Of a stretch of DNA of 64,000 nt, positions 48,321 to 64,000 are shown piece after piece. The notes under the pieces were generated by a model. The model had not been told where the DNA came from. It saw nothing but the letters and a program-made list of their open reading frames with translations, and did not search any database. Source of the DNA: an uncultured Parcubacteria group bacterium (GTDB lineage: Bacteria; Patescibacteriota; Patescibacteriia; UBA9934; CAMTUG01). How positions within the stretch are numbered: position 1 is the first letter of the stretch; the number at the start of each line of letters is the position of its first letter. Location: NCBI GenBank assembly GCA_947084965.1, contig CAMTUG010000002.1, positions 79,434-143,433 of the forward strand, given 5' to 3'. Both the position numbers and the translations under genes were made by a program.

Positions 48321-48818
48321 ATGCGTCGTTATTTTATCGGCATCGGCGGTCTCATGGCCGCTGGATTTGCAGGGATCGCCGTGGCGATGGTTTCTGTCCA
48401 CAGACAGTGGCAGGCAGACGTCGCGGCGGCTGAGGCGGCCCAAGCTGAGTGGGTCGCTGAGCGGGCGGAGATCGCCGAGCGCGAAGCGGTCGCGCGCAAG
48501 GCCGAGGAGCAGAAGGAGCTCATCGGCGAGGCGATGGCCAACCTGACGGGGGGCTGGAACCCCTGGATCGTCGACTCGATCGACCAGGTCCAGAACCCCG
48601 AGTTCGTCGCGCTCTTCCTGGTCGTCCGCGCCCAGCGGGACGAGCAGAGCAAGGCGCTCGACGAGCTGCTCGAGAAGGAGCCGTGCGCCAGCCGGTTCGA
48701 GAAGCCGGGCTACAAGGAGCGCTGCGACAAGCTCTTCGACGCCCTGTCCCTCGAGACCTTCGCCCCGATCAAGCCCAACCTCGACCGCATCCAGGAGATC
48801 GCCAACACGTACAACTAG
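48321..48818 (+). CDS. GC-rich membrane-anchored coiled-coil hypothetical protein
   Basis: MRRYFIGIGGLMAAGFAGIAVAMV TM then Ala/Glu-rich helix; visibly GC-rich; ORF-track start 48261 is the -35 box. Confidence 0.55.
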   Translation: MRRYFIGIGGLMAAGFAGIAVAMVSVHRQWQADVAAAEAAQAEWVAERAEIAEREAVARKAEEQKELIGEAMANLTGGWNPWIVDSIDQVQNPEFVALFLVVRAQRDEQSKALDELLEKEPCASRFEKPGYKERCDKLFDALSLETFAPIKPNLDRIQEIANTYN

Positions 48819-48821
48819 TAC

Positions 48822-48882
48822 GACCACCCCCAGCGGCCACCCTCGTCGCACTCTCGGGGGTGGTCGCTGCATTTCATGCAGC
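48822..48882 (+). terminator. GC-rich tandem hairpins (GACCACCCCC...GGGGGTGGTC then GCTGCATTTCATGCAGC), repeat family
   Basis: cgaccacccccagcggccaccctcgtcgcactctcgggggtggtcgctgcatttcatgcagc. Confidence 0.5.
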
Positions 48883-48944
48883 CACAGGGGCTTCCGCCCC
48901 TCTGGTCGTCGCTCCGCTCCTGTCACCCTCAGCAGGTAAGGGGA

Positions 48945-48970
48945 GATATCTCCCCTTACCATCCCCTCCG
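48945..48970. repeat. Perfect 26-bp palindrome
   Basis: ggtaaggggagatatctccccttacc. Confidence 0.5.
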
Positions 48971-49018
48971 CCCACGCTTCGCGTGGTCGCTGCATTTTAG
49001 CTACTTTAGCCACGAACG

Positions 49019-49047
49019 TTGACAAAGTCGACTTTTTGTGTTATTTT
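49019..49047 (+). promoter_or_regulatory. Sigma70-like promoter TTGACA-N17-TATTTT, near-identical to 48261-48289
   Basis: ttgacaaagtcgactttttgtgttatttt; preceded by a partial copy gtggtcgctgcatttta of the 3' repeat. Confidence 0.45.
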
Positions 49048-49164
49048 CGGCCCTCTGGCAATCCCGCCAGATGTGTCGACCGGATTGGGAACGGGGTTTT
49101 CCGTTGCCCTTTTCGCTCGGCCCTTACACCGTTTGGATGCAATAGGCCAAACGCTGGAGGTCTC

Positions 49165-50394
49165 GTGTTTCTGCCCACTTGGATCCCCTGGTGGATCGGC
49201 TTTCTGCAGCCGGCTTCGAAGCTGCAGCGCATGATGGAAGCGTGTTCCATCGTCATCATGGCCGTGTTCACGGCCTGGTGCGTCATCAACAACGTGGAGC
49301 CCACGGTCACCGAGCAGGACCAGGCCCGTCGCGACGCGGACGTCATCGCCGTCCAGTACGAGGCCCGCTGCAGCATTTACACCCTCGCCGAGATGGGCTC
49401 TTGGCCGTCCAAGCCGTGGACGAAGGCCAAGAACATGTGGGGCAGCAACCCCGGGTGTGGCGCCCTCGGCCAGAACTTCCTCCACTTCTTCACCAAGGGC
49501 TACCCCGACGGTGGGGGACGTTCGCCGGCCGTCTTCTGGTGGAACAACGATCGCCCGGCGGTCGCGCTCTACCAGGAGTGGTGGAAGGAGCGTGAGCGGC
49601 ACTACGAGCGGGAATGGGACAAGAAGGAAAAGGCCGAGCTCGCCAAGGCGGACGCCGCGTTCGAAGCGGCGCTCGTGAAGGCCGACGAGAGTGAGCGGTT
49701 TCAGCTCGTGCTCATCGAGACCGCCAAGCGCACCGTCGGCTGGTGGGTCGGCGGGCTCGTCGTGATCGCCATGATCGTGGGGTGCATCTACGGGTGGCTT
49801 CGCATGATCAACCACCGCTTCATCACGCACTGCGGTGTCTGGGCTGGCGGCGACTGCCTGGCCGAGGTGGTGATCCCGCGCTACCCGTTCGGGCGGCCGA
49901 AGATCACCGGTCGCTTCGACAAGGCCTGGAGGGCGGTCGTCAACTTCCGCGGCCAGACGGTGCTCGCCGACCGCCTGGGCAACCGGGTCGTCATCGGAGA
50001 GAACGGCACCTCCACGACGATCAACATGATCCTGCACCCGAGCCTCCCCGCCTACCTGAAGGCGGTCGTCAATCAGTCCAGCACCCAGGCGGTGACCATC
50101 CGTCAGCAGGGGGAGCAGATCGCCCAGCTCGAGGCGGCGGCGCAGAAGCAGAAGCAGTGGATCGACTGGTACCGCGATGAGATCCGGGCGCGCAACCGCC
50201 TGCTCGTCCTCGCCATCGAAGGGATGCGGAAGTCGAAGGACTTCCAGCGTCTCGGCGTGGTCCAGACGATGCGCGAGCGCCTGCTCGAGCGGATGCGCGA
50301 AGAGCTCAAGGACGACAAGGAGCTCTGGGCCGCGATCGGGGAGCGCGAGGAGGAAGAGGGGCTGTCCGTCAAGCCCCCGACCGAAGACAACTAG
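49165..50394 (+). CDS. GC-rich hypothetical membrane-anchored protein (GTG start after GGAGG)
   Basis: ctggaggtctcGTG; N-terminal hydrophobic segments, central TM, C-terminal coiled coil; visibly GC-rich; ORF-track start 49036 lies in the 5' UTR. Confidence 0.5.
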   Translation: MFLPTWIPWWIGFLQPASKLQRMMEACSIVIMAVFTAWCVINNVEPTVTEQDQARRDADVIAVQYEARCSIYTLAEMGSWPSKPWTKAKNMWGSNPGCGALGQNFLHFFTKGYPDGGGRSPAVFWWNNDRPAVALYQEWWKERERHYEREWDKKEKAELAKADAAFEAALVKADESERFQLVLIETAKRTVGWWVGGLVVIAMIVGCIYGWLRMINHRFITHCGVWAGGDCLAEVVIPRYPFGRPKITGRFDKAWRAVVNFRGQTVLADRLGNRVVIGENGTSTTINMILHPSLPAYLKAVVNQSSTQAVTIRQQGEQIAQLEAAAQKQKQWIDWYRDEIRARNRLLVLAIEGMRKSKDFQRLGVVQTMRERLLERMREELKDDKELWAAIGEREEEEGLSVKPPTEDN

Positions 50395-51134: not shown

Positions 51135-51205
51135 AGAAAAAGCTCGCTGGTTTCCCAGCGAGCTTTTCGTTTGCTATAATTGCCAAGAAATAATCCACAA
51201 CTTGT

Positions 51206-51646
51206 ATGTCACTGCTATCTCGTATTGAGGAAGATGTAAAGACCGCGATGAAGGAGAAAAAGGAGGACGCACTTTCGACGTTGCGCATGATCCGCTCTGC
51301 CCTCAAGAATAAACAGATCGACTTGATGCGTGACCTGGAAGATGAGGATGTCATCACGGTTTTGCAATCGCAGATGAAGCAACTCGGGGAAGCGCTCGAT
51401 TCGGCGCTAAAAGCCGGACGCACAGAACTGGAAGAGCGCGCCAAAGCCGAGATGGAACTTCTCAAGGCGTATCTCCCGGCCGAGATGAGTGATGAAGATC
51501 TGCAAGCCGCGATCCAAGAGGTCTTGGCCGACGCCAAAGATCTCGGCAACGACATGGGCAAGGTGATGGGGCTTGTGATGCAGAAGGTCAAAGGCCGGGC
51601 CGGTGGACAACGCGTTCGTGAAAAAGTCGCGCAGATGTTAAAATAG
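51206..51646 (+). CDS. yqeY: GatB/YqeY-domain protein
   Basis: MSLLSRIEEDVKTAMKEKKEDALSTLRMIRSALKNKQID; conserved rpsU-yqeY pairing. Confidence 0.8.
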   Translation: MSLLSRIEEDVKTAMKEKKEDALSTLRMIRSALKNKQIDLMRDLEDEDVITVLQSQMKQLGEALDSALKAGRTELEERAKAEMELLKAYLPAEMSDEDLQAAIQEVLADAKDLGNDMGKVMGLVMQKVKGRAGGQRVREKVAQMLK

Positions 51647-51652
51647 ACAGGC

Positions 51653-53494
51653 ATGAAGTTTGTCGCATCACTTTTTGTTGCGCTGACGTTAATTGCCACA
51701 CCGATATTTGTCGCGCTCGCCCAGCAGGAAGGGCTCGATACGGTTGGTACAGCGTCAGGACTTGGGAACCAGGATCTGCTGGTGACCATTGGTCGTGTAG
51801 TTCAAGTATTCCTTGGACTTCTTGGTGTTATCTTCCTGTTGCTGACGATCTACGCCGGCTACCTTTGGATGACGTCGCAAGGGGATGAAGAGAAAGTTCA
51901 GAAGGCGATCAACATCATTAAATCGGCGACGATCGGGTTGATCATCTGTCTGGCCGCGTTCGCGATCGCTACGTGGATCGTGAATGCGCTCATCGCAGCG
52001 ACAGGGCTCGGTTCCGACACTACGGACGACAGCGCAACGCCAACCCCGTTCTCGGACGCTCTCGGAAGCGGTGGTATTGAAGATCATTATCCGCCACGCA
52101 ACGGAACGGATATCGCCCGTAATACAAAAATTATCGTCACGTTTAAAGAAGAGGTTTATATCCCTTCACTGATTGTTGATTACGATACAGGGGCGGATGC
52201 GTCAGATGTGAGCGATGACACCGCTCCAGCCGTCGCTTATTTGAACACAGATAATGTGACGATCTCCTGTGTTGATCCGACCACAGCAGAGGAGACGGAT
52301 CTTACTTCAACGGAAGTGACCGTGGCCTTTACGGAAGATTTACAAACATTCGTGTTCGATCCGCCCGTTCTCGGTTCGTCTGTTTATGAAACGACATGCA
52401 CCGTTGCTCTTGGTCCGGGTATCTTAGAAGCGGATGGAGCGAATGTCTTCACCGGTTCAAGCGCGGAAGGTTACCAATGGTCATTCACGGTTTCGACCGA
52501 GATCGATACCACTCCGCCGACGATTCGTAGCATCTACCCAACAGAAGGGGCGACAGACGCACGCAATGTCTTAGTGCAGATCGTCTTTTCCGAGGCTGTG
52601 GATCCAACAACGACATCTGGAACGTATGACCTGACAGAGGGCGGATTCACCAACATCCAGGTTCAGTCTGACGAAGACGAAACAGGCACCTACAGCCCAG
52701 TTGCCGGAACATTCGTCATTTCGAGCGGATACACGGTCGTTGAATTTACCTCCGCCGACGCTTGTGGGACGAATTCTTGTGGAGAGACGATCTATTGTTT
52801 GCCTGGGCCGAGTGCTACAGAAGCAACAGAAGAAATTCAACTTGAAATTCAGGCCGCTGACCTCGGAGATTCTCCTCCAGAGGCGGCCACACCGTATACG
52901 GGCGTCGTTGATGTGGCGGGGAATTCCCTTGATGGAAACGACGACGGCACAGCCGGGGATGATGCACGTTCAGATTTTTCTGTCACGGATGAAATCGTTT
53001 TGGCCGGACCTGAGCTGACCGATATCTCACCAAATCCTGTTGAGGAAGATGTCGACGTGGATGCAGATCTGACCTTTATTTGGGATACGATCATGCGTTC
53101 AAGCACACTGACCAACAGCAACATCAGTTTGTACGCTTACCCCGATCACGAATTGTATTACGTCGCTCGCAACAGTTCGTACGACAGTAGTGGGGTGGAA
53201 GTGACAGCAACGACCCAAACCCCGGATCACACCGTGACGGAGATGAGTCATGGGACGTTTGTCGAATCGATTGAAGATGATCCATCAACAGCGGCGGATG
53301 AATCGACCTCACAACTGTATGCTCCATTACTCCCGGACGCAGTGCAGAGCATCTATCAAAACTGTTTCTACCCAGCGGTGGGGCCAGGGGCGAGCGAGAC
53401 GACTTCGTGTGATGGTACGGCCAACAATCCGTACTGCTGCGATGGAGTAGAAGCTGACGCTCCGTTTAACGCCACGACATTCTCATGTCCTTAA
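51653..53494 (+). CDS. Secreted/membrane-anchored protein: signal peptide + two-helix pilin-like (TrbC/VirB2-like) module + Ig-like domains + Cys-rich C-terminus
   Basis: MKFVASLFVALTLIATPIFVALAQ ... LLGVIFLLLTIYAGYLWMTSQGDEEKVQKAINIIKSATIGLIICLAAFAIATWIV; same module as the next gene. Confidence 0.7.
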   Translation: MKFVASLFVALTLIATPIFVALAQQEGLDTVGTASGLGNQDLLVTIGRVVQVFLGLLGVIFLLLTIYAGYLWMTSQGDEEKVQKAINIIKSATIGLIICLAAFAIATWIVNALIAATGLGSDTTDDSATPTPFSDALGSGGIEDHYPPRNGTDIARNTKIIVTFKEEVYIPSLIVDYDTGADASDVSDDTAPAVAYLNTDNVTISCVDPTTAEETDLTSTEVTVAFTEDLQTFVFDPPVLGSSVYETTCTVALGPGILEADGANVFTGSSAEGYQWSFTVSTEIDTTPPTIRSIYPTEGATDARNVLVQIVFSEAVDPTTTSGTYDLTEGGFTNIQVQSDEDETGTYSPVAGTFVISSGYTVVEFTSADACGTNSCGETIYCLPGPSATEATEEIQLEIQAADLGDSPPEAATPYTGVVDVAGNSLDGNDDGTAGDDARSDFSVTDEIVLAGPELTDISPNPVEEDVDVDADLTFIWDTIMRSSTLTNSNISLYAYPDHELYYVARNSSYDSSGVEVTATTQTPDHTVTEMSHGTFVESIEDDPSTAADESTSQLYAPLLPDAVQSIYQNCFYPAVGPGASETTSCDGTANNPYCCDGVEADAPFNATTFSCP

Positions 53495-56400
53495 AACGTT
53501 TCATCCTGAGTTTCGTGATCGCCCTCGCTGCCGTGGGATTCTTTGCTCTGCCAGCCCTTGCCCAGATCGATACAGGGATTGAAGAGGGGAGTGCATTCCA
53601 ACAAGCGCTCGGGCTTGGCACGGCCGATCCTAAGATTATTGTGGCGAACGTGATCCGTGCCGCCCTCGGACTGCTCGGTGTTGTTGCGGTCTGTCTGTTC
53701 ATCTACGCCGGCTTTTTGTGGATGACGAGCGGCGGAAGCGAAGAAAAAGTTGATCGGGCGCGCAAGATGCTGATCAACGCCACGGTCGGGTTAACGATTA
53801 TTTTGGCTTCATTTGCCATTACGCAGTTTGTCCTTTCGCGTCTGCTTTCAGCCACTGGAGTCGGCGGCTCTGATATTACCGGTGGAGGAGGCACGTCTGG
53901 TGGGGCACCGGCTTCCACCGACGCGGTGTTTGTGATTGAAAGCGCTTCACCGCAAGGCGAGCAGACGATCAAAAACTTAACGGTCCGTCTGACCTTTAAC
54001 AAAGACGTTGACGGGGACACGGTGAGTGCGATCACGATTACACCAGATGGATCTTCGACGCCGGTTGAGGGGACGTATGCGGTCAACGGTGATCGTGTGA
54101 CCTTCACCCCGAGTCTCGCCTGTGAAGAAGCGCCGAGCGAAAACTGTTTTGCGGAAAATACGTTGTACACGATCGAGCTGGGTTCAGGGCTGAAGAGTGA
54201 GTCCGGCCTGACGATCTCTTGTGGTGGACTGTATGACGCCTGTGAGTACGAATTTACTTCTGGGGAGCTTGTTGATACCACAGATCCCGAAGTTGAGATC
54301 ACCTACCCGGAAGACGGCGATTCCGTTTCTGTTGATGCGTACGTTCCGCTTCAAGCGCTCGTCACGGATGATGCCGGAGTTTCTTTGGTTGAATTTTACG
54401 TGGACGGTGTGTTGGTTGATACCGATCAACCGGACGGCGACACCCCGACCGAATTTATCGCTGAAATCGAATGGGACACCGCGGCGATCGAAGAGGGCAG
54501 TGAGCATGAGATTTATGCGATCGCCTACGATGTGAACGCGCATGATGCGGATTCGGATGCGATTGAAGTGACCGTACGTGCCGCGCACTGTTTTAATGGA
54601 GAGACAGATGAAGATGAAACGGGGGAAGATTGCGGCGGCGAAGATTGTGGTTCCTGTGGCGGTGATGCGTGTGTCGAAGATAGTGATTGTCAAAGCGGAG
54701 TCTGTGAAGACGGTTCTTGCGTCGATGCCCCAGAAATTACAGGCGTTTCTCCGGCGGACGGCGCTCCGGGCACCTACGTTACGATTTCTGGAAATAATTT
54801 TGGGAGCAGCACTGGCACGGTGTTGTTTGGAGACGTTGAGGCCGAACTTGCTGACTGTAACGACCCGTGGGATACGGATCAGGTCATTGTTGTCGTTCCG
54901 GAAGGGGTGAGCGAGGGGGAACTTTATACTATTACGCTCACAACCGCAGGTGGTCATAGCGATAGTACGGATGATGACAACGGTACGTTGATTGATGATT
55001 TTGAAGTGACTTCGGTTGTCCGTCCGGGGATCTGTCAGTTGGATCCGGATTTTGGTGAGGTCACAGACCCGACAGATGTATTGGGGGTAAATTTTGGCGA
55101 TGCCCAGGACAGCGGGGCATTTTATTTCGGCACCGTAGAAGCTGGAGCGTACACGGATTGGGCCGACGAACTTCTTTCCGTGATCGTGCCAACGCTCGCA
55201 GCCGATGATTACGATGCTACGGTTTGGATTGATGGAGTGGAATCAAACACCGTCAACTACGAAGTGCAGGAAGCAGACACCGGTGCGGCACCTGTCATCA
55301 CCTCGATCGATCCAGAATCCGGACCGATCGATGAATACGTGACCATTGTCGGTGAAAACTTCGGTTCTTCTACTGGTTTGGTTTATTTCACAAATACGGA
55401 TACAGAAAGTGCTGATTTTGGGGTAGTGACGGCCGCCTCCACGGATTTCCCCGCCGTCTGTGTAGATGATATCTGGGGTGGCGAAGAAATCATCGTCAAA
55501 GTGCCAGAAGGTGTTGAGAGTACAACGTACTCGGTCAATGTCTATCGGTACGACAGCGTCGCTTCGGAAGGGATAGACTTCACGGTGACGGACGGTACGG
55601 CCGGTCCGGGGATCTGTGCGATCGATCCGGATTCTGGACCGTCCGGGTATGAAGGGGTGACGATCTCGGGTGAAGGATTTGGGGACGATGAAGGCACAGT
55701 CACGTTTGCTGACGGTCAGTCAGCGAGCGTCACTACCTGGGAAGACGGAGAAATTGTGGTCGATGTGCCGGAGGCGGCAGTGACGGGCTATGTAACGGTC
55801 ACGGATACCTCAGATGATGAATCCAACGGTACGCTTTTTGGCATCGGCGACTGTAACGAAGTTGATCTTTGTGATGCGAACACCCAGCAGTGTTGTTCTA
55901 CAGGGGTGTGTGTTGCTTCAACGGGCAGCTGTCCGGAAGAAACGGTGATTGATGCGTCGTATGCCTGGCGGTTTTCAACTGGGCCGATTCCGACGGTGCC
56001 GGGGATCGAGGTGGAATGCTCGGACGACATGATCAGTCCGACCCCTTGGGACGGACGCTCTGGTGGTGATGCGGTTTGTGTCAATGCCGCCCTTTCGGCA
56101 ACCTTCGACACGACGATGGATCAGGATAGCTTTACCTCAACGACGATCTTGTTGAATAAATGCACCGGCCCATCCGACGACCCTTGTTCATCTGTGGAAT
56201 CGGTTACTCTCGACACGATCGATACAACAAGCGTCAGCTTTACGGTCGCGCCTGCCTCGGTTCTCGACGTCTCCTCGACCTACCTGATCACATTAACGAG
56301 TGGGATCACTTCGTATAATGGAACGGCGATCGAGGAAACAGCCTGGACATTTGGGACCTCCTCGAGCGCGGAAATTTGCGATATCGAAGGGGTGAACATC

Positions 56401-59400
56401 ACCCCGAGCAGCCAAACGATCGAAGAGGAAGATGGGACGGCGAATTTCAACGCCCAAGCGGTCGCGGCGGACGAGTGTGTCATCCTTGATTCCGGCGCCT
56501 ACGCTTGGAATTGGGAGACAGACGAGACGTATGCCACGCTGACAACCGCAGCCGATGCGGATTGCACCGGCGAGCCGTCTTCTTGTCAGAGTGCGCTGGC
56601 GGTCCAAGAGGGTACGTCTTACATGTTGGTCGAAGAAAACACCCAGGGGGTGGACGATGATGCCGACCTGCTGATTAATTTTACTAATCCGTACATCGTG
56701 AGTTACGAACCTTCTTGCGGTGAAGGGGGAACGGCCTGTATCAACGCCGGGATTTACGTCACCTTTAATACGGAGATGGACGAAAGTTCTATCACGAGCC
56801 CTGGGCGGGTCGTGGTGTATCCGTGTACGGATGAAATTTGCGCTGCCTATACGGATGCCGACGGGATCGAACTTTCCATTGATCTCGATGACGATGATCC
56901 AACACAGCTCTCCATCATCCCAACCAGCTACTTCACGTCGACAACGTATTACGAAGTTATCCTGTCCGGGGACATTGCTTCTGAGAGTGGGGTGTTGATG
57001 TCGGAAACGTACGACGGTGATTTCTCCTGGACGTTTTTGACTAAAGCAGACGACACACTTTGCGCTGTTGATCGTGTTGCCTTGGATCCAGGTTCGGCGA
57101 CCGTTGATTACGTCGGGGCGACAGCGGTTTTTGAATCGCGCGCTTATGGTTTGCCAGACGCCTGTTCTTCGGAAGGTCAACAGCTTGTCGGTACGAGCTA
57201 TGACTGGGCGTGGGTGAGCGACAACACAGCTGTTGCCACACTCTACAGCGATGGTGCAGTCGAAGTGGCTACGGACGAAATTCCTGACGGGTGTACAACG
57301 TCTTGCTTACCAGAAGGGACGCAAAGCTACACCGCCATTTGCGGCGAAGACGCAGACGGTGATGGGAGCTTGCTCGATTCGGGTGAGGATTGTGATGACG
57401 GAAACGCTGAAGACGGTGATGGATGTTCTTCGCAGTGCTTGAACGAGGGGACGACGGCCTGCACTTCTGCGACCGACCCGTCCTGCTGTGGAAATGGTAC
57501 GGTCGATGCGGCTGAGGAGTGCGATGATGGCGGGAGTAGGAGTGGTGACGGTTGTTCCGCAAGCTGTCTCAATGAAGGATCACGGTCCGTTGGTTTGAGC
57601 TGCACGGACAACGTTTTGACACACTACGACACCGTCGGGACAACGACCTGGGCCGGAGGGGAAGAGTGCAATGACGAAGATGATGGCTGTTCAAGTGTAT
57701 GCTTGAACGAGGGGTCGCCGTCGAACTTGGATTTGGTCGGTGTGTGTGGTAACGGTGTCGTGGAAAGTCCGGCAGAAGAGTGCGATGGCGGGGCTCGCTG
57801 TTCCGACACCTGTCTGTTTGAAGGGAATACCACGGCCTGCAGTGCAACCGTTACCACGAATTGTTGTGGCAATAGCACGACTGAATCTTCTGCTTTTGAA
57901 TCTTGTGACGACGGAAATACCACCAGTGGCGACGGCTGCTCAAATCTTTGTCTGCTGGAGGGAAGTTCCGCACTCTATACCACCCCAAGTTTCTGCGCGG
58001 ATGCCACAGTGGGGTTGGGCGAAGCTAGTGCTTGCGAAGTATCAACCAGCGATTTAGACGGGAACGTTGAACCGATTCAGGTGGCGATCATCGCCACGAC
58101 CGCTCCGGCAGAAGTGGTTGACGGAGTGGCGACGTCCACGATTGAGGCAACGACCGAAGGGGAGACCGGCGAGGCAGCGTTTAATCTTTCCTGTTCCTGT
58201 ACGGTGGACAGTGACTGTTCCGACTCGACGACGCTCGGCTGCGGAACGGGTGGATGTTGTTACGTCCGACCAACAGTAACCGACTACACCCCTTCAACAA
58301 CGGATGCCTGTCGCAACACGTTGATCTCTTTTACCTTTGATGCCGAAATGAACATCAACACCTTTGCTGAAAATGTTTCGGTCGAACTTGAGTTGGATGC
58401 TGATGAAACCTGTCCGTATGATGGGTCGACGGCCCGCGCGAACGGGAGCTGGTTCTCGCGTCTGTGGAACACGGTCACCGATTTCTTCACCGGATTTGTT
58501 CTGCCGGCAGATGCGCAATCATCCGTTTGCGAACTTCCTTTCACCTTCAGTGTCTCTGACGATGCGGGCGGACAACGCGTATCCTTGATCTATACGGAAT
58601 TACTGGAAGCGAGTCATGATTACACCGTGACGATCACCGGTGATCCAGATCACGACGGTTCTGGTGTTCGCTCGGCCGACGGGGTCGGTATGCAAGCGGA
58701 TTACACCTTCACCGCTGAAATCGGCGAGGACGTCTGCTCATTTGATGCGGTGAGAGTTGAGGATGAAGACGAAGATTCTCCAGGGCTCTTCACAGAGACG
58801 AATGAAGAGCACAGCTATCATGCTACAGCGATCACCACGACCGGAGGTGTGGAAGAAGAACTCTCTTCAATCCCAGGGGTTTACGAATGGGATTGGACGC
58901 AAACGTGGTGGTCAACCGACACGGAGATTTTGACCGTCCCTTCGACGAGCGAAACCGATGCCGAGGGCGATGATAACGTCGTCACCGCCGTCGGAGAAAA
59001 CGGGGAAGCGGTTATTTATGCCGATGCGCTGATCACCGTCGATACGCTCTTTGGCCTGGCGGGTGAATCTGTTGCTGGATCGGTTGATGCCGTTGCTAAC
59101 TTGTGTGAAAATCCTTGGCCGGCATTGCCGACCGCCGATGAACTCGCGGCGGGCGGTACCTGGGAACCGTTTACCGATGAAGACGGCGCGGATGCGGATC
59201 CAGATGATGACGGCACAGATGAAATTGCTGAACGCGATGGCTACATGCACTTCTCGACCTATTATTGCCGTGATGATGGCGATGAAGGGGGGAGTGATGA
59301 CTTTGATTCGGCAGACGCCGTCGGTGTGACGGCTCCACCGGGTGATGTGCTCAAAGAATATCTTTTCCGTTTCAGCAACGGCGACGGTATTGGTATTCGC

Positions 59401-62400
59401 ATCTCTCCAAATGAAGATCTCCTGGCGATCGGTGACTGGTATGCAGAGCAAGGATTCACCGGTTCGCCTTCCGCCACAACGGTCGATGGCTACGAAGCGC
59501 TCCAAGACGGCCGCACGGTTTACGTTTTGGCCGCCAATCAGAGCGACGATGGCGACATCTATTCGAATATTTACGTCCTCTCCTATTCCGAAGGGGCTGA
59601 TGAATCGACGGTGGAGATCTTCAACCAGATGCTTGAAAACTGGTCGTTCAATACCAACGTCAGTAATGATCAGCTTTGCTATGAAACGGTAACCACAGCA
59701 ACGGAAGTGACCGCCAGGATTCCGATCTGTAATTCAGCGACCTCTGCCGGATATCAGCAGGATTGTGTCATGGACTGTGATGACGCATGGCAGTGTTACT
59801 ACGGTGATACGGACGAGGACGGCTATTGTGACATGGTTGGGACGGCCAACTTGCGTGGTGAAGGTGCTGTCTGTGGCGATGGAGATTACGACTGTAGCAT
59901 TGATTGTTCAGGATCAAGCATCGGTTTCCGTACCGGAACCGTTACTCATGATGTGGATAGCCTTGAGATTTCAGCGGAGACCTGTTCCTCGGATTTCGAT
60001 TGTTCCAGCGGGCCTTGTAGTGCAGAAAAGGACAAGCTGACGCGTGACCTCAAGCGTCTGACCGACCTGCGCTATATCGAAGGAGCTCTTGAGAATTATG
60101 GCGAATCAAACGGGCGCTGCAGCGCATCGACCTCTATCTCTTGTACTTCAAGCGCGGATTGTCCGAGCGCCAGCGAAACATGCGAACCGGTCTATCCAGA
60201 GATTAACTCCGGTTCGTTCCTCCGCTCCATCACCGATAGCGCTTGGTCGTCGTGGACCGAGGTGTTGCAGAGTGACTTGGAAGTAACGATCCCAACCGAT
60301 CCGCTCAATCAATTCGATCTTTGCGGAGAGACGGGTGGCGATTACGCGGACTACAGCGCAGACACCTGCTGGAACGCGACCAACTCGTTATTCGCCTGTC
60401 CGGCCGGCTCCTACACCTATCTCTATCGTAATATTGGTCAAACGGCGTATCAGATCCTCGTTGACCTAGAATATGATTACGTCAGTGCTAGCCCGACGGC
60501 TTCTTGGGCCTTCGCCATTGACCAAGACACGACGGACGATCTCGATATTTTGGTGGGGAACGCCTTCGATAATCTGACTGACGGGTATCAAGAGGATCCA
60601 ACGTGTAACGACGACATCTACGGCGCATCCGAAGTTTGTGGGGACGGCGTGCGTGGGTCTGGGGAGGCGTGTGAAGCGGGTGATACCCAGAGCGTTGCTT
60701 GCACCGCACTGGTCTGTGTTAGTAGAGACGCGGATTATGACGGACAAGCCTGTCTGATCGATTGTACGGACACGACGATCTGTTCCGGCGGGGATGCGGA
60801 TGCGGACGGTGACTGTGATTCCGGCCTGGCCGCCGGCCTTGCCTGTAATTCCGGCGCAGTCGATTGTACGGACACGACGATCTGTACAACAACCGCTTCG
60901 GAGAGCGGGACAACGACCGAATCTTGTATCGACGACCCCAGCGATGCCCTGGCTTGTGATGATTATGAAACGAATCCTCGTGCGGCCTGCGTGCCGGTTC
61001 GCTGCGGAAACGGTGTCGTTGATGCGGGTGAAACGTGCGACGACGGTTCACGCAACGGGACGTACGGCTATTGCGGTACTAATTGCGCTTGGGACAGCTC
61101 AGCGTTCTATTGTGGTGACGGTACCCTTGCTGGCGGAGAATCTTGTGATGAAGGTTCAGACAACGGTGTCTATACACTGAATCCGGCTAATTCTTGCAAC
61201 GCCACCTGTTCAGGGACCGGTCCATCCTGCGGAGATGGAAAGGTAAATGGTGCCGAGATTTGCGATGGTGACAACGAGCAATACGAAGGCGCACTCTGTT
61301 CAGATGGGGAGACGGCGTGTGATGATGATAGCGACTGCTCCGGAACAGATACCTGTCATTTGACGTATGATTCGAGTGTGTCCATTTTGGGCCAGCATCT
61401 CGCCTGTCCGACAGGGAATGTCTGCGTCGGTGGCTCGCTTGATGGAGTCCTTTGTAATGGAACGAGCTGGGCGGATGTTGGGATCACGGGCTTGGATGAA
61501 CTTGGCGTCGATCTAGTTCTACTCGGTTTGTGTCAGGCGGGTGGGGGAACATGCGACACAACAGCGGCTGAATATCAAACCTATCGCACCCGTTCTTGCG
61601 ATGAAGATGCGACAAGTGCCACCGCCTGCCAATGGAACTCTTGGAATTATTGTAACAGTGCCGAGCAAATGTGCGGCGATGGGGAAATACAGGGTGAGGA
61701 AGAATGTGATGACGGTAACAGCAGCAATAATGACGCCTGTACTAACGCCTGTACTTCGAACGTCTGCGGTGATGGCTATTTGTACTCCGGTTACGAAACG
61801 TGCGACCGCGGGGACGAGAACGGCACGATCTGCGAAGCAGATTACGGTTCAACCTGTCGCTACTGCTCAAATGCCTGTGTCTATCTGACCGCTTCGGGTG
61901 ACTATTGCGGTGATGGAGTGCTTGATACATCTTCTGAAGTCTGTGATGGAACACTTACCTCGCACTATTACTATTTTGATTCAGCAACTCGGACGGTTAA
62001 CGGGATCTGTTACACGCTCGGTGACACACTCTCGGACGATGGTGTTGATTACACCTGTCGTGATGTTGGTGTTTGTGACGGTGGTCCTGATGGCGGGGAA
62101 TATTGTACCTACTCCGCTGGGGAGTCGGTTAGTGGAAATGATCAAACGACCTGTGATACCAACTCGACACAGTTCTATACTTGTATGAAGCCGACGTGCA
62201 ATGATGATTGTGCAAGCGCCTGTCCGTTCAATTATGAAGAAGGTACGGTCTCGATTACCAGCGAGTCCGCTGGGGCTGTGGCTGGTACTTCGCTTAGTCT
62301 GTACAGTTTTGAGAATGATGATGGTAATGCGCCGGACAACGCCACACTGACGCTTCCAGCCTGTACTGTTTGGTCGTCGTTAACTGCCGATATTTCTGAA

Positions 62401-63402
62401 TCAGAACGTAATCTCCCGGACACAGATATTATCTTTGTCCTTGATAAGTCGCAGTCGATGTCTAGTACGTTGTCTGGTTCAGATACCCGATTAGATATTT
62501 TACGGTCTGCCGTTAGTGATGCTGTTGACGAACTCTTTGACGCCTATACCGGGGTAAGTGCCGAGTTGAGAGTCGGCGTCGCCTATATCGGCGGCCAGCA
62601 TGGTACAGATGGTGATTCGAGTGGGACCTACAGCCAGAGTGAACTCAACGATTTCTTACTGCTTGATTTGACTGATGAAAAAGCCGATGTCTTGCAAACC
62701 TTAGCAGATGACTTCAGAGGTGTGGACTCCGTGCAAGGGACACCAATATACGAATCGGTAGCGGACGCGATTGATGCACTTAGTGATTCAACTGCTGAGA
62801 GTCGCATCATCATTGTCTTTACCGACGGAGATATTTACAACACTTCAACAGAGTATGGAAAGATCCAGTCGGTTTATGGCCTGAGTGATTCTGACTCAAG
62901 CGGCAGCGTCAATGATGAATATATGGCCGAAGTCAGTCAGTTGACTGATGACGCCAAGGATAGTGGGATAGAAATTTATTCTGCTGTTCTGACCTCTACT
63001 ACTTGTGACATTCGTCAGATGCAGCGCTGGTCGTCAATGGTGTGTACAACAGATACAAGCGCTGATAACTGTTCTGGTGCTCGCGCTGAGGGGAATGATC
63101 TTTCTTGCACGGAACCGGATTCGGGGCTGACCTATGCTTACTCGGCAACCACAGCAGACGAACTCGCGGCGATGTATGAGCAGATTATCGACTCGATTCT
63201 TGGCGTAACAGTTATCATTGTCGACGAGGACGGCAATGAGGGCATGGATCTGGTTGACGTCGGTGATTCGATTACCTTGCCATTGCCCTCGGCGTTCATC
63301 TGTGATGAAACGGCAGAGAAGGATGTGAGTATCAAAGTCAGTTTCCGTGGGAGTGGCCCGGTCAAGTTTGAGGCGTTTGAATTGAACATGTGTGCCCCAT
63401 AA
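53485..63402 (+). CDS. Giant (3305 aa) multidomain surface protein: pilin-like anchor, Ig-like, 3x IPT/TIG, two Cys-rich repeat blocks, C-terminal vWA
   Basis: LLGVVAVCLFIYAGFLWMTSGGSEEKVDRARKMLINATVGLTIILASFAITQFVL; IPT-like PEITGVSPADGAPGTYVTISGNNFGSS x3; CxDDGNxxxGDGCSxxC repeats; vWA DIIFVLDKSQSMS...IIIVFTDGD. Confidence 0.75.
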   Translation: MSLKRFILSFVIALAAVGFFALPALAQIDTGIEEGSAFQQALGLGTADPKIIVANVIRAALGLLGVVAVCLFIYAGFLWMTSGGSEEKVDRARKMLINATVGLTIILASFAITQFVLSRLLSATGVGGSDITGGGGTSGGAPASTDAVFVIESASPQGEQTIKNLTVRLTFNKDVDGDTVSAITITPDGSSTPVEGTYAVNGDRVTFTPSLACEEAPSENCFAENTLYTIELGSGLKSESGLTISCGGLYDACEYEFTSGELVDTTDPEVEITYPEDGDSVSVDAYVPLQALVTDDAGVSLVEFYVDGVLVDTDQPDGDTPTEFIAEIEWDTAAIEEGSEHEIYAIAYDVNAHDADSDAIEVTVRAAHCFNGETDEDETGEDCGGEDCGSCGGDACVEDSDCQSGVCEDGSCVDAPEITGVSPADGAPGTYVTISGNNFGSSTGTVLFGDVEAELADCNDPWDTDQVIVVVPEGVSEGELYTITLTTAGGHSDSTDDDNGTLIDDFEVTSVVRPGICQLDPDFGEVTDPTDVLGVNFGDAQDSGAFYFGTVEAGAYTDWADELLSVIVPTLAADDYDATVWIDGVESNTVNYEVQEADTGAAPVITSIDPESGPIDEYVTIVGENFGSSTGLVYFTNTDTESADFGVVTAASTDFPAVCVDDIWGGEEIIVKVPEGVESTTYSVNVYRYDSVASEGIDFTVTDGTAGPGICAIDPDSGPSGYEGVTISGEGFGDDEGTVTFADGQSASVTTWEDGEIVVDVPEAAVTGYVTVTDTSDDESNGTLFGIGDCNEVDLCDANTQQCCSTGVCVASTGSCPEETVIDASYAWRFSTGPIPTVPGIEVECSDDMISPTPWDGRSGGDAVCVNAALSATFDTTMDQDSFTSTTILLNKCTGPSDDPCSSVESVTLDTIDTTSVSFTVAPASVLDVSSTYLITLTSGITSYNGTAIEETAWTFGTSSSAEICDIEGVNITPSSQTIEEEDGTANFNAQAVAADECVILDSGAYAWNWETDETYATLTTAADADCTGEPSSCQSALAVQEGTSYMLVEENTQGVDDDADLLINFTNPYIVSYEPSCGEGGTACINAGIYVTFNTEMDESSITSPGRVVVYPCTDEICAAYTDADGIELSIDLDDDDPTQLSIIPTSYFTSTTYYEVILSGDIASESGVLMSETYDGDFSWTFLTKADDTLCAVDRVALDPGSATVDYVGATAVFESRAYGLPDACSSEGQQLVGTSYDWAWVSDNTAVATLYSDGAVEVATDEIPDGCTTSCLPEGTQSYTAICGEDADGDGSLLDSGEDCDDGNAEDGDGCSSQCLNEGTTACTSATDPSCCGNGTVDAAEECDDGGSRSGDGCSASCLNEGSRSVGLSCTDNVLTHYDTVGTTTWAGGEECNDEDDGCSSVCLNEGSPSNLDLVGVCGNGVVESPAEECDGGARCSDTCLFEGNTTACSATVTTNCCGNSTTESSAFESCDDGNTTSGDGCSNLCLLEGSSALYTTPSFCADATVGLGEASACEVSTSDLDGNVEPIQVAIIATTAPAEVVDGVATSTIEATTEGETGEAAFNLSCSCTVDSDCSDSTTLGCGTGGCCYVRPTVTDYTPSTTDACRNTLISFTFDAEMNINTFAENVSVELELDADETCPYDGSTARANGSWFSRLWNTVTDFFTGFVLPADAQSSVCELPFTFSVSDDAGGQRVSLIYTELLEASHDYTVTITGDPDHDGSGVRSADGVGMQADYTFTAEIGEDVCSFDAVRVEDEDEDSPGLFTETNEEHSYHATAITTTGGVEEELSSIPGVYEWDWTQTWWSTDTEILTVPSTSETDAEGDDNVVTAVGENGEAVIYADALITVDTLFGLAGESVAGSVDAVANLCENPWPALPTADELAAGGTWEPFTDEDGADADPDDDGTDEIAERDGYMHFSTYYCRDDGDEGGSDDFDSADAVGVTAPPGDVLKEYLFRFSNGDGIGIRISPNEDLLAIGDWYAEQGFTGSPSATTVDGYEALQDGRTVYVLAANQSDDGDIYSNIYVLSYSEGADESTVEIFNQMLENWSFNTNVSNDQLCYETVTTATEVTARIPICNSATSAGYQQDCVMDCDDAWQCYYGDTDEDGYCDMVGTANLRGEGAVCGDGDYDCSIDCSGSSIGFRTGTVTHDVDSLEISAETCSSDFDCSSGPCSAEKDKLTRDLKRLTDLRYIEGALENYGESNGRCSASTSISCTSSADCPSASETCEPVYPEINSGSFLRSITDSAWSSWTEVLQSDLEVTIPTDPLNQFDLCGETGGDYADYSADTCWNATNSLFACPAGSYTYLYRNIGQTAYQILVDLEYDYVSASPTASWAFAIDQDTTDDLDILVGNAFDNLTDGYQEDPTCNDDIYGASEVCGDGVRGSGEACEAGDTQSVACTALVCVSRDADYDGQACLIDCTDTTICSGGDADADGDCDSGLAAGLACNSGAVDCTDTTICTTTASESGTTTESCIDDPSDALACDDYETNPRAACVPVRCGNGVVDAGETCDDGSRNGTYGYCGTNCAWDSSAFYCGDGTLAGGESCDEGSDNGVYTLNPANSCNATCSGTGPSCGDGKVNGAEICDGDNEQYEGALCSDGETACDDDSDCSGTDTCHLTYDSSVSILGQHLACPTGNVCVGGSLDGVLCNGTSWADVGITGLDELGVDLVLLGLCQAGGGTCDTTAAEYQTYRTRSCDEDATSATACQWNSWNYCNSAEQMCGDGEIQGEEECDDGNSSNNDACTNACTSNVCGDGYLYSGYETCDRGDENGTICEADYGSTCRYCSNACVYLTASGDYCGDGVLDTSSEVCDGTLTSHYYYFDSATRTVNGICYTLGDTLSDDGVDYTCRDVGVCDGGPDGGEYCTYSAGESVSGNDQTTCDTNSTQFYTCMKPTCNDDCASACPFNYEEGTVSITSESAGAVAGTSLSLYSFENDDGNAPDNATLTLPACTVWSSLTADISESERNLPDTDIIFVLDKSQSMSSTLSGSDTRLDILRSAVSDAVDELFDAYTGVSAELRVGVAYIGGQHGTDGDSSGTYSQSELNDFLLLDLTDEKADVLQTLADDFRGVDSVQGTPIYESVADAIDALSDSTAESRIIIVFTDGDIYNTSTEYGKIQSVYGLSDSDSSGSVNDEYMAEVSQLTDDAKDSGIEIYSAVLTSTTCDIRQMQRWSSMVCTTDTSADNCSGARAEGNDLSCTEPDSGLTYAYSATTADELAAMYEQIIDSILGVTVIIVDEDGNEGMDLVDVGDSITLPLPSAFICDETAEKDVSIKVSFRGSGPVKFEAFELNMCAP

Positions 63403-63403
63403 T

Positions 63404-64000
63404 ATGGAGGAACAATACCAGCCACAATCGTATGTCTATGAAGGACAATCGGGCGCACCGGAGCCAGTTGTAAAAAATCGCCGCTGGGTTGTTATTGGGG
63501 TGGTGGTCATTCTCGTCATTATTCTGTTCTCGTTCGTCACTATCTTTTTTGTGAATCGGTCACGTGCGAACCGAGCGGCGGAACAAGCAGCAGCGAATAA
63601 ACGCGCGGAGGTAATCGTTGTTATTGAAGAAAAGTGCAATGATGCTGAATTACCTGAAGAATGTCTGTTGGATCTGCGCGGAAGTGCAGCACAGAAGGCG
63701 GCGGATGTTGCTTATTGTGACGGGCTTGCATCTGGAACAGCCTACGATTCTTGTGCCATGTTGGCGGCGATCGCCGCGGCGGATGCTTCATATTGCGATA
63801 AGATATCGGATGCAACCAAAAAAGCCGCTTGCAATGATGCGGCCCTATCCTCTGTTGCATCCGCGGATCGTCAGTATGACGATTGTCGGCTTTATTCGAC
63901 GACCCAGCGCCAAGATCAATGTAGAGATGAATTTGTTATTCGGGCTGTTGTGCAGGGGGTCTGTGATCCTGCGTTCATGGATGATGTATCTTGCGATGCG
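63404..64000 (+). CDS. Membrane-anchored Cys-repeat hypothetical protein (3'-partial, runs off window)
   Basis: MEEQYQ...WVVIGVVVILVIILFSFVTIFFV TM, then repeated A..YCD motifs; TAATATG junction with the giant gene. Confidence 0.5.
   Translation, partial: MEEQYQPQSYVYEGQSGAPEPVVKNRRWVVIGVVVILVIILFSFVTIFFVNRSRANRAAEQAAANKRAEVIVVIEEKCNDAELPEECLLDLRGSAAQKAADVAYCDGLASGTAYDSCAMLAAIAAADASYCDKISDATKKAACNDAALSSVASADRQYDDCRLYSTTQRQDQCRDEFVIRAVVQGVCDPAFMDDVSCDA

What the first reader, a model, noticed from the sequence alone, without database searches (positions are those of the whole stretch)
51653..53850. Two adjacent genes share the same pilin-like N-terminal module and overlap by 10 nt
The 613-aa protein (51653-53494) and the giant protein both begin with a signal peptide followed by the same two-helix module, ~60% identical by eye:
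- ...LGLLGVIFLLLTIYAGYLWMTSQGDEEKVQKAINIIKSATIGLIICLAAFAIATWIV...
- ...LGLLGVVAVCLFIYAGFLWMTSGGSEEKVDRARKMLINATVGLTIILASFAITQFVL...
Both are followed by Ig-like domains of the 'TIKNLTVRLTFNKDV...' / 'NTKIIVTFKEEVY' type. The first gene ends in a Cys cluster (CDGTANNPYCCDG...FSCP). The second starts at ATGTCCTTAA, overlapping the first gene's TAA stop. This suggests a co-translated minor/major subunit pair, or a family of pilin-anchored display proteins. A third membrane-anchored Cys-repeat gene follows at 63404.
Basis: seen in the sequence. Interest (0 to 1): 0.7.

Follow-up and report, generated by a model that had tools for sequence, protein, structure and literature searches.

The report
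Conjugative-pilin hairpin anchoring giant surface adhesins
Two adjacent genes of an ultra-small (CPR/Patescibacteria) bacterium each start with the same membrane hairpin that normally forms conjugation pili, here fused to a 600-residue and a 3,300-residue surface protein; the pair is conserved in the 79 related genomes examined and is a candidate for the still-unidentified attachment device of these host-dependent bacteria.

Summary
Gene 1 (51653-53494, 613 aa) and gene 2 (53485-63402, 3,305 aa) overlap by 10 nt (ATGTCCTTAA). Their N-termini are 43% identical over 124 aa (E 1e-28) and 56% identical over the quoted core.

The shared module is not a type IV pilin. It is the VirB2-like 'T4SS_pilin' hairpin (PF18895): a Sec signal peptide, two long hydrophobic helices and a short charged loop. 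The same module makes up whole 125-aa pilins in Patescibacteria.

Gene 1 is not a fragment. More than 100 full-length homologues of about 600 aa exist. In 79 of 81 informative related loci (Ca. Uhrbacteria and other Patescibacteria), gene 1 is followed directly by a hairpin-bearing giant. The junction is usually ATGA or a gap of 15 nt or less. The upstream order signal peptidase-HisRS-S21-YqeY is also conserved.

The giant is a very acidic, Cys-rich fibrillar protein. It carries Big_5, Big_7 and TIG domains, Cys-rich repeats and a distal vWA domain with a complete MIDAS motif. That vWA domain resembles those of pilus-tip adhesins.

No T4SS machinery lies in the 64 kb window.

Best reading: a conserved pair of hairpin-anchored surface adhesins. 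The exciting but unproven reading is modular VirB2 pilins displayed on the T4SS pilus. I found no paper describing this.

The parts
51138..51180 (+). Terminator-like hairpin after rpsU (51138-51167) overlapping a promoter-like site (TTCCCA-17-TGnTATAAT, 51152-51180); the probable start of the yqeY-g1-g2-g3 transcription unit
   Evidence: 13-bp stem; 10/12 promoter match with extended -10. A consensus match only; no expression data.
51206..51646 (+). yqeY (GatB/YqeY-domain protein, 146 aa). It ends 6 nt before gene 1 and is in conserved linkage with it.
   Evidence: a YqeY homologue lies upstream of g1 in 70 of 85 loci; fused in frame to a hairpin module in 4 relatives
51653..53494 (+). Gene 1: 613-aa, 64-kDa, pI 4.05 surface protein
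51653..51721 (+). Gene 1 Sec signal peptide (residues 1-23, ALA|QQ)
   Evidence: AxA|Q is conserved in the homologue alignment
51722..52006 (+). Gene 1 VirB2-like hairpin module (residues 24-118; helices 42-73 and 79-117, loop TSQGD)
   Evidence: PF18895 40.1 bits (cutoff 26.6) and NF045849 41.4 bits (cutoff 40); AF2 helices; 126.5 bits to the module HMM
52043..53491 (+). Gene 1 ectodomain: a flexible linker, then all-beta Ig-like domains (Big_5 at residues 285-362) and a C-terminal Cys knot
53485..53494 (+). 10-nt overlap ATGTCCTTAA (gene 2 start inside the end of gene 1)
   Evidence: in relatives the junction is 23x ATGA, 38x gaps of 0-15 nt
53485..63402 (+). Gene 2: 3,305-aa, 345-kDa, pI 4.05 giant with 161 Cys
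53485..53562 (+). Gene 2 signal peptide (residues 1-26, ALA|QI)
53584..53859 (+). Gene 2 VirB2-like hairpin module (residues 34-125)
   Evidence: PF18895 24.5-26.5 bits (cutoff 26.6); 115.8 bits to the module HMM; 43% identity to gene 1
53932..62424 (+). Gene 2 stalk: Big_5, Big_7, TIG x3-4, further Big_5 domains, DUF4215/TIGR02232 Cys-rich acidic repeats, and a PsbP/Mog1-like domain (~59347-59679)
60016..60474 (+). Conserved segment of gene 2 (residues 2178-2330) whose motif recalls the head of type IV pilins/pseudopilins; unconfirmed
62428..63024 (+). Gene 2 vWA domain with MIDAS residues D2987, S2989, S2991, T3086, D3114
   Evidence: VWA_2 29.1 bits (cutoff 27); PDB profile hits collagen VI 1.9e-18, SpaC 6.5e-13, GBS104 6.7e-12, RrgA 7.8e-10, Mfa5, S. 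sanguinis PilB; motif conserved in the closer relatives aligned
63025..63399 (+). Gene 2 C-terminal beta domain ending ...YCAP-type motif (here NMCAP)
63404..64000 (+). Gene 3 (truncated by the window end): a short cytoplasmic N-terminus, one TM helix, then Cys-pair repeats. Homologues of 281-301 aa in three relatives carry TSP3_bac repeats.

Best explanation
yqeY-g1-g2-g3 is a conserved chromosomal operon of an Uhrbacteria-like Patescibacterium (CPR). It encodes a cell-surface attachment structure.

How it works, with each step marked as shown or inferred:
- Shown from sequence: g1 and g2 each carry a Sec signal peptide with an ALA|Q signal-peptidase-I site, followed by a VirB2-type helical hairpin.
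- Inferred from VirB2/TraA topology: the hairpin leaves the loop in the cytoplasm and both ends outside, so the large C-terminal part is extracellular and tethered by a flexible Gly/Ser/Thr linker.
- Shown by domain content: g2 is a fibrillar adhesin. It has a long stalk of Ig-like domains (Big_5, Big_7, TIG) and acidic Cys-rich repeats, and ends in a metal-dependent vWA (MIDAS) head like those of pilus-tip adhesins. g1 is a short partner with Ig-like domains and a disulfide knot.
- Inferred: the homologous hairpins let g1 and g2 pack side by side in the membrane. Where free small pilins are encoded alongside, they may join the same assembly. The tight or overlapping junction gives coupled, proportionate synthesis.
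- Inferred: the structure binds a host cell or substrate surface.

Whether the hairpins stay in the membrane (my preferred reading) or are drawn into a T4SS pilus is not settled.
For: - Module identity: PF18895 and NF045849 hits. Free 125-aa pilins such as P0214 consist of exactly this module.
- Topology: signal peptide plus two hydrophobic helices of about 32 and 39 residues, then a disordered linker.
- Surface character: pI 4.05; 11 and 161 Cys; conserved Cys pattern.
- Adhesin architecture: Big_5, Big_7, TIG and Cys-rich repeats. The vWA domain has a full MIDAS motif and matches SpaC, GBS104, RrgA, Mfa5 and PilB.
- Conservation as a pair: 79 of 81 informative loci have g1 followed by a hairpin-bearing ORF. 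Forty-three complete ones range from 927 to 3,606 aa, median 3,281.
- The giants align collinearly at 30-47% identity.
- Junctions: 26 overlaps and 38 gaps of 0-15 nt among 79 loci.
- The g1 and g2 hairpins are ancient paralogues. The nearest neighbour is mostly of the same class, yet within-genome identity is somewhat higher (0.507 against 0.446), hinting at co-evolution.
- No promoter or terminator lies between yqeY, g1, g2 and g3.
- No T4SS genes occur anywhere in the window or in the annotated flanks of relatives.
Against: - There is no experimental or expression evidence.
- Adhesion is inferred only from domain types. vWA and Ig-like domains also occur in non-adhesive proteins.
- g1 diverges only a little faster than neighbouring housekeeping genes (27-59% identity against 34-53% for YqeY). 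The locus sits among core genes. Both fit a structural envelope role at least as well as a host-specific adhesin.
- The vWA head is present only in the closer clade of giants; distant ones end differently.
- The helices (about 32 and 39 residues) are longer than a plain TM anchor needs, which points towards a true pilin function.
- A direct g1-g2 interaction was not tested.
Confidence: 0.6

Rival explanations
1. Modular VirB2 pilins. g1 and g2 are minor subunits of the Patescibacterial T4SS pilus. The T4SS extracts their hairpins from the membrane together with small major pilins encoded elsewhere and builds them into the filament, at the tip or sparsely along it. The ectodomains hang on the outside. 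This would supply the adhesin that the essential Patescibacterial T4SS appears to lack.
For: - The hairpin is a full-length match to free pilins.
- In F-type pili both termini of the pilin lie outside the filament, and the loop that is cytoplasmic in the membrane lines the lumen (PMC5018250). A C-terminal fusion is therefore topologically displayable.
- A monoderm has no outer-membrane channel to block a bulky fusion (inference).
- In four relatives a free 123-165 aa pilin sits between g1 and g2.
- VirB2-like pilin arrays are widespread, and essential in a cultivated Saccharibacterium (PMC12102498, PMC10633639). The survey reported that no adhesins were detected.
- Pilus adhesins of three other pilus types are likewise 'pilin module + vWA/lectin module'; SpaC, RrgA, Mfa5 and S. 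sanguinis PilB are hit.
- The helices are longer than a bilayer needs.
Against: - No virB4, virB6 or small pilin gene lies within the 64-kb window.
- The conserved neighbours are housekeeping genes, whereas T4SS clusters in Paceibacteria lie near dnaA.
- The module also occurs in polytopic tandem proteins of up to 17 copies, so it is not always a pilus subunit.
- A 345-kDa appendage per subunit could be tolerated only at very low stoichiometry.
Confidence: 0.22
2. Envelope scaffold. g1 and g2 are structural components of the cell envelope, such as an S-layer-like coat or a spacer holding it to the membrane, rather than adhesins. The hairpin is just their membrane anchor.
For: - Extreme acidity, pI 4.05.
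- One syntenic copy of the pair per locus, next to core genes, in every locus examined.
- Moderate evolutionary rate, similar to neighbouring housekeeping genes.
Against: - No SLH or other known S-layer anchoring or lattice domain was found.
- A 3,300-aa multi-domain rod with a terminal MIDAS vWA head is the typical build of an adhesin, not of a lattice protein.
Confidence: 0.15
3. Annotation or assembly artefact: the two genes are one gene broken by a frameshift, or the similarity is generic hydrophobicity.
For: The genes overlap and are co-oriented.
Against: - Each gene has its own signal peptide and hairpin.
- Both are conserved as separate, full-length genes in 79 loci.
- BLASTP E is 1e-28, with conserved polar motifs.
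Confidence: 0.01

Closest known systems
VirB2/TrbC-like pilins of Patescibacterial type IV secretion systems (Pfam PF18895 T4SS_pilin; NCBIfam NF045849 Mbov_0395-family pilin-like conjugal transfer protein)
   Same: Same N-terminal module: a Sec signal peptide with an AxA|Q site, two long hydrophobic helices, and a short charged loop with the YAG-LWMT-GG motif. The organism group is the same, and paralogous copies sit side by side.
   Different: Known members are 120-160 aa proteins, often in arrays next to virB4. Here the module is the first 4-20% of 613-aa and 3,305-aa proteins. The genes lie among housekeeping genes, and no T4SS gene is in the 64 kb window. I found no paper describing such fusions. 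Automatic annotations such as 'Type IV secretion system pilin/Bacterial Ig-like domain' do exist.
Modular type IV pilins, e.g. Streptococcus sanguinis PilB (pilin module + vWA adhesin module; PDB 7b7p)
   Same: The design principle is the same: a filament-subunit module fused to a vWA adhesion module in a monoderm. The g2 vWA profile hits PilB at E 4.9e-8.
   Different: The pilin module is different and unrelated. PilB has a type IV pilin alpha1 helix with a class III signal peptide, against the VirB2-type hairpin with a class I signal peptide here. g2 also has a stalk of about 2,800 aa between the two modules.
Sortase-pilus tip adhesins SpaC, RrgA and GBS104, and the fimbrial tip protein Mfa5
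   Same: A distal vWA/MIDAS domain carried on Ig-like stalk domains.
   Different: Those proteins are attached through LPXTG/sortase or strand exchange. g1 and g2 have no LPXTG motif or C-terminal anchor; their anchor is N-terminal.
Fibrillar adhesins and giant surface proteins of CPR bacteria (e.g. the giant membrane proteins of Vampirococcus lugosii, PMC8080830)
   Same: Giant, membrane-associated, repeat-rich proteins proposed to mediate host attachment in CPR bacteria.
   Different: The lineage and domain sets differ. No VirB2-like anchor or conserved short partner gene is described there.

Membership tests
T4SS_pilin / VirB2-TrbC-like pilins (PF18895, NF045849) | Significant match to the family profile over the whole module | tested here: met
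   g1: PF18895 40.1 bits (cutoff 26.6), profile positions 7-71 of 71; NF045849 41.4 bits (cutoff 40). g2: PF18895 24.5-26.5 bits, just under the cutoff, but 43% identical to g1 (E 1e-28) and 115.8 bits to the module HMM.
T4SS_pilin / VirB2-TrbC-like pilins (PF18895, NF045849) | Cleavable leader followed by two hydrophobic helices joined by a short polar loop | tested here: met
   Hydropathy, AF2 helices 42-73 and 79-117, ALA|Q sites.
T4SS_pilin / VirB2-TrbC-like pilins (PF18895, NF045849) | Small protein consisting essentially of the module alone | tested here: not met
   613 aa and 3,305 aa. Free pilins of 122-156 aa exist in the same family.
T4SS_pilin / VirB2-TrbC-like pilins (PF18895, NF045849) | Encoded with T4SS machinery (virB4, virB6, virB3...) | tested here: not met
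   A Pfam scan of about 40 ORFs across the 64-kb window found no T4SS component. Annotated flanks of three relatives contain only housekeeping genes. The rest of the genome could not be searched.
T4SS_pilin / VirB2-TrbC-like pilins (PF18895, NF045849) | Fold like solved conjugative pilins | tested here: inconclusive
   [not shown]
T4SS_pilin / VirB2-TrbC-like pilins (PF18895, NF045849) | Polymerises with phospholipid into a pilus | not testable with these tools
   Needs cryo-EM/ET or biochemistry.
Fibrillar adhesins (stalk repeats + adhesive domain + surface anchor) | Repeated stalk domains | tested here: met
   Big_5 (at least 4 copies), Big_7, TIG x3-4, and DUF4215/TIGR02232 repeats.
Fibrillar adhesins (stalk repeats + adhesive domain + surface anchor) | Recognised adhesive domain distal to the anchor | tested here: met
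   vWA domain at residues 2982-3180 with DxSxS...T...D. VWA_2 scores 29.1 bits against a cutoff of 27. PDB profile hits range from 1.9e-18 to about 1e-8, including pilus adhesins.
Fibrillar adhesins (stalk repeats + adhesive domain + surface anchor) | Known surface anchor (LPXTG, SLH, LysM, autotransporter...) | tested here: not met
   No LPXTG motif and no C-terminal TM segment. The only membrane element is the N-terminal VirB2-like hairpin.
Type IV pilins / modular type IV pilins (e.g. PilB) | Class III signal peptide (G|FTLxE) and an N-terminal alpha1 helix | tested here: not met
   No such motif in g1 or g2, or in any ORF of the 85 loci and the window. The signal peptides are class I.
Type IV pilins / modular type IV pilins (e.g. 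PilB) | Pilin-head (alpha/beta) domain | tested here: inconclusive
   g2 residues 2178-2330 have a conserved KxKLxRDxxRLxDL...Y...DPLN...YxY motif that I recall from pilin heads. No Pfam or PDB hit. The model has low confidence.
S-layer proteins | SLH or other lattice/anchoring domains; abundant lattice-forming protein | tested here: not met
   [not shown]

The most novel reading that the evidence does not exclude
g1 and g2 are the first 'modular VirB2 pilins'. These would be giant adhesins that the Patescibacterial type IV secretion system polymerises into or onto its pilus through their N-terminal pilin hairpin. Such an arrangement is possible only because these bacteria have no outer membrane. 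It would provide the missing adhesin/host-recognition element of the T4SS that is essential for epibiotic growth. The conserved short partner g1 would act as an adaptor or initiator subunit.
Probability: 0.2. Interest if true: 0.85.

Novelty: new variant of a known kind. Interest (0 to 1): 0.6.

Why it matters
Patescibacteria make up a large share of bacterial diversity. All cultivated members live attached to other microbes, yet apart from type IV pili the molecules that hold them to their hosts are largely unknown. Their unusual T4SS with VirB2-like pilins is essential in the one genetically tractable species, and a 2025 survey reported no associated adhesin.

This study contributes three things:
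- It names a concrete candidate: a conserved, syntenic two-gene cassette, examined here in 79 related loci, in which the pilin hairpin is fused to a giant vWA-tipped fibre.
- It shows that the pilin module is used modularly, as free pilins, tandem arrays and N-terminal anchors of proteins up to about 3,600 aa.
- It yields simple tests: co-occurrence with virB4, immunolabelling, and multimer modelling.

Even under the conservative reading, it defines a new type of surface-protein anchor in monoderm bacteria.

Tried and rejected
- PDB sequence-profile search with the hairpin alignment. It returned only designed 'Pizza' beta-propeller repeats, an artefact of summing six weak repeats. No pilin was found, so this was uninformative.
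- Foldseek against afdb50. The library was not available.
- Word-indexed homologue searches with the g2 N-terminus and C-terminus. They gave few hits, because giants are fragmented in metagenomes and because of the word index. I used genome loci instead.
- Structure prediction with an alignment of locus-derived sequences.
- Replacement structure job with 5 sequences. It gave a poor model (pLDDT 50.5). Only residues of about 90-190 of that segment were usable; they show a PsbP/Mog1/LpqN-like fold with no functional implication.
- The idea that g2 contains a type IV pilin head domain. It remains a lead only.
- Frameshift/fragment hypothesis for g1. Rejected.
- Type IV pilin identity of the module. 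Rejected.
- Promoter directly upstream of 51653. None was found, and the gap to yqeY is only 6 nt.
- Rfam and tRNA scans. Nothing relevant near the locus.
- Recent duplication or gene conversion as the source of the g1/g2 similarity. Mostly rejected: the two hairpin classes are old paralogues, with only a modest within-genome excess of identity.

Full report
**1. The observation**

The window has two co-oriented ORFs, 51653-53494 (613 aa, 'g1') and 53485-63402 (3,305 aa, 'g2'). The junction reads ctcATGTCCTTAAaac, so the genes overlap by 10 nt.

BLASTP of the first 130 residues of each gives 43% identity over 124 aa, E 1e-28.

Each protein starts with a signal peptide ending ALA|Q. Two long hydrophobic segments follow (g1 41-75 and 84-120; g2 49-84 and 94-123). 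A six-frame motif scan finds only these two copies in the 64 kb window. A third gene starts 1 nt after g2's stop and runs off the window; it has a TM helix and Cys-pair repeats.

**2. What the module is**

Pfam assigns both N-termini to PF18895, 'Type IV secretion system pilin'. g1 scores 40.1 bits against a cutoff of 26.6. g2 scores 24.5-26.5 bits, marginally below the cutoff. NCBIfam assigns g1 to NF045849, the Mbov_0395 family of pilin-like conjugal transfer proteins of Mycoplasma ICEs (41.4 bits, cutoff 40).

The module is therefore the VirB2/TrbC-type pilin of conjugation-like type IV secretion systems, not a type IV pilus pilin. No class III signal peptide is present.

**3. How the module is used elsewhere**

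I searched a profile of the module against 1.84 billion representative proteins. It found 66,745 representatives at E ≤ 1e-3 and 20,426 at E ≤ 1e-10. Among the best 150 there are three forms:
- free pilins of 122-156 aa that consist of the module alone (for example P0214);
- tandem proteins with 2-17 modules (P0143, P0142);
- proteins with one N-terminal module and a long tail (487, 812, 1,075, 1,127, 3,018, 3,271, 3,481 and 3,578 aa).

**4. Is g1 a fragment?**

No. The homologue search returned 351 proteins. The best 120 are 568-635 aa with 87-100% query coverage, all carry PF13205 + PF18895, and where named they come from Patescibacteria, Parcubacteria or Uhrbacteria. The alignment is conserved end to end.

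**5. Is the pair conserved?**

Yes. Three relatives looked up by exact protein show the order signal peptidase-HisRS-S21-YqeY-g1-giant-g3. The giants there are 2,929-3,199 aa and also carry PF18895. The g3 homologues are 281-301 aa with TSP3_bac repeats.

A scan of one genome per species found 540 stretches encoding a relative. Some of these may match only through the hairpin. The 80 loci that were kept nearly all match g1 over close to its full length; four are cut by contig ends. Their record titles are Ca. Uhrbacteria, Patescibacteria or Parcubacteria, plus many records labelled 'uncultured Gammaproteobacteria', which is evidently a submitter's placeholder.

My ORF and HMM analysis of all 85 loci gave the following:
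- In 79 of 81 loci with usable downstream DNA, g1 is followed on the same strand by a module-bearing ORF. The 43 complete ones are 927-3,606 aa, median 3,281.
- The two exceptions (L064, L078) still have large ORFs of 1,650 and 880-900 aa directly downstream, without a recognisable hairpin.
- Junctions among the 79 loci: 26 overlaps (23 ATGA; 10 nt only in this window's own contig, seen as the window and L001), 38 gaps of 0-15 nt, 11 gaps of 16-120 nt, and 4 longer.
- The giants align collinearly with g2 at 30-47% identity.
- Upstream neighbours are conserved: SPase in 62, HisRS in 68, S21 in 74 and YqeY in 70 of 85 loci.

The g1 and g2 hairpins are old paralogues. The nearest neighbour is of the same class in 74 of 86 and 61 of 79 cases. 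Within-genome identity is slightly raised (0.507 against 0.446).

**6. What g2 is**

g2 is 345 kDa with pI 4.05. It has 609 acidic against 83 basic residues and 161 Cys. Its domain map:

| Residues | Feature |
|---|---|
| 34-125 | hairpin |
| 150-258 | Big_5 |
| 268-337 | Big_7 |
| 416 to ~790 | TIG x3-4 |
| several positions | more Big_5 domains |
| several positions | DUF4215/TIGR02232 Cys-rich acidic repeats |
| ~1955-2065 | PsbP/Mog1-like domain |
| 2982-3180 | vWA domain |
| 3181-3305 | terminal beta domain |

The vWA assignment is solid. VWA_2 scores 29.1 bits against a cutoff of 27. A profile of 17 orthologous C-termini hits collagen VI vWA (1.9e-18) and the pilus adhesins SpaC (6.5e-13), GBS104 (6.7e-12) and RrgA (7.8e-10). 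It also hits Mfa5 (2.4e-8) and the modular type IV pilin PilB of S. sanguinis (4.9e-8). All five MIDAS residues are present (D2987, S2989, S2991, T3086, D3114) and are conserved in the closer relatives aligned. More distant giants end in a different domain, so the tip varies while the stalk is conserved. Neither protein has an LPXTG motif or a C-terminal anchor.

**7. Context**

The window is ordinary chromosome. It encodes ribosomal proteins, SecY, Adk, Map, RecO, AsnRS/AspRS, ScpAB, ParAB, RelA/SpoT, a LytR-family protein, a DsbD-like protein, a Cu-ATPase, signal peptidase I, HisRS, S21 and YqeY. By synteny with relatives it also holds TopA, DprA, Pth and Der. There is no VirB4, VirB6 or other T4SS component.

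A 13-bp terminator-like hairpin follows rpsU. It overlaps the only good promoter-like site (51152-51180), which lies upstream of yqeY. yqeY ends 6 nt before g1, and g3 starts 1 nt after g2's stop. No terminator-like site follows g2. The predicted transcription unit is therefore yqeY-g1-g2-g3.

**8. Mechanism**

Shown:
- Sec-type leaders;
- a VirB2-type hairpin;
- a flexible linker;
- Ig-like/Cys-rich ectodomains;
- a distal MIDAS vWA domain;
- tight gene coupling;
- deep conservation of the pair.

Inferred from established VirB2/TraA biology:
- In the membrane the inter-helix loop is cytoplasmic and both termini are outside. In the F pilus the loop lines the lumen and both termini are on the outside (PMC5018250).
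- VirB2 sits in the membrane before it is extracted with a phospholipid into the pilus (PMC12624023).

Everything C-terminal of the hairpin is therefore extracellular, whether the hairpin stays in the membrane or enters a filament.

I commit to the hairpin-anchored adhesin pair as the most likely mechanism (about 0.6). The modular-pilin model is the main rival (about 0.2) and an envelope scaffold the third (about 0.15). The arguments for and against each are in the structured fields.

**9. Comparison with what is known**

Small VirB2-like pilins and pilin arrays in Patescibacteria are published. They were found in 1,948 assemblies, as arrays of 2-11 genes, near virB4 in 1,135 of them (PMC12102498). 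The array is essential in Southlakia epibionticum (PMC10633639) and has been reviewed (PMC12857230). The same survey states that no adhesins were detected.

Full-text searches for PF18895, T4SS_pilin, VirB2 + Patescibacteria, giant + CPR + pilin, and modular pilin + VirB2 found no description of the module fused to Ig/vWA giants or of this conserved cassette. Automatic annotation has noticed the domain pair (a JGI name).

I rate this a new variant of a known kind. The module and the organism group are known. The architecture, the conserved g1-g2 cassette and its genomic separation from the T4SS are not described.

**10. Limits**

- There are no expression or localisation data.
- The rest of the genome could not be searched for a T4SS.
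- The g1-g2 interaction was not modelled.
- The second structure model was poor.
- The count of 540 species is an upper bound for true g1 orthologues.

Noticed in passing
L012:9042-9782, L076:9054-9812, also L034 and L053: In four relatives the yqeY ORF upstream of g1 runs on without a stop into a signal-peptide-like TM segment and a divergent VirB2-like hairpin (246-254 aa in total). The result is a cytoplasmic YqeY domain fused to a pilin-type hairpin. In the window, yqeY (51206-51646) stops 6 nt before g1.
   Followed up: partly
L040:8753-9250, L041:11749-12138, L047:7071-7442, L057:11755-12126: A free small pilin (123-165 aa) with a g2-type hairpin sits between g1 and the giant in four relatives. 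In those genomes the cassette therefore contains a small pilin plus two 'modular' ones.
   Followed up: partly
library proteins P0142 (1,775 aa), P0143 (552 aa), P0145 (232 aa): Proteins made of 2-17 tandem copies of the pilin hairpin exist, as polytopic 'fused pilin arrays'. Whether they are cleaved into single pilins is unknown.
   Followed up: no
window 60016-60474 (g2 residues 2178-2330); also L071:9836-12331 C-terminal extension and L064:16502-19147: A conserved segment has the motif KxKLxRDxxRLxDL..I..AL..Y...G.YP...WPSW...iPxDPLN...CPxGS..YxY. It recalls the alpha1-C helix and head of type IV pilins/pseudopilins.
   Followed up: partly
[not shown]
   Followed up: partly
window 48261-50394: Two ORFs (185 and 452 aa, no Pfam hit, local GC 61% against about 54%) are inserted between HisRS and rpsU. 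None of the 84 other loci has them except L001, which is the same contig. This looks like a lineage-specific insertion in an otherwise conserved gene order.
   Followed up: partly
window 42363-43547, 44017-46188, 46211-46822: A DsbD_2/CcdA-like membrane protein, a heavy-metal P-type ATPase and signal peptidase I lie just upstream. The signal peptidase is in conserved synteny with the cassette (62 of 85 loci). Both a disulfide-handling protein and a leader peptidase would be needed by these Cys-rich secreted proteins. In RP4 an S26-family peptidase (TraF) matures the pilin (from my own knowledge, not tested here).
   Followed up: no
C-termini of giants in L045, L049, L055, L056, L063, L070, L072, L077, L079, L084: More distant orthologues of g2 lack the vWA head and end in a different domain (with a 'TDxxGxFxFxGL'-type motif). 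The tip of the fibre has been exchanged between clades while the stalk and hairpin were kept.
   Followed up: partly
L064:11504-19147, L078:11538-19231: In two loci the gene after g1 is split into ORFs of about 1,650 and 880-900 aa with no recognisable hairpin. This could be a degraded or remodelled giant.
   Followed up: partly
record titles of L006, L008-L010 and many others: Many MAG records that carry this clearly Patescibacterial cassette and gene order are titled 'uncultured Gammaproteobacteria bacterium'. This is probably a placeholder or a mislabel in the submissions.
   Followed up: no
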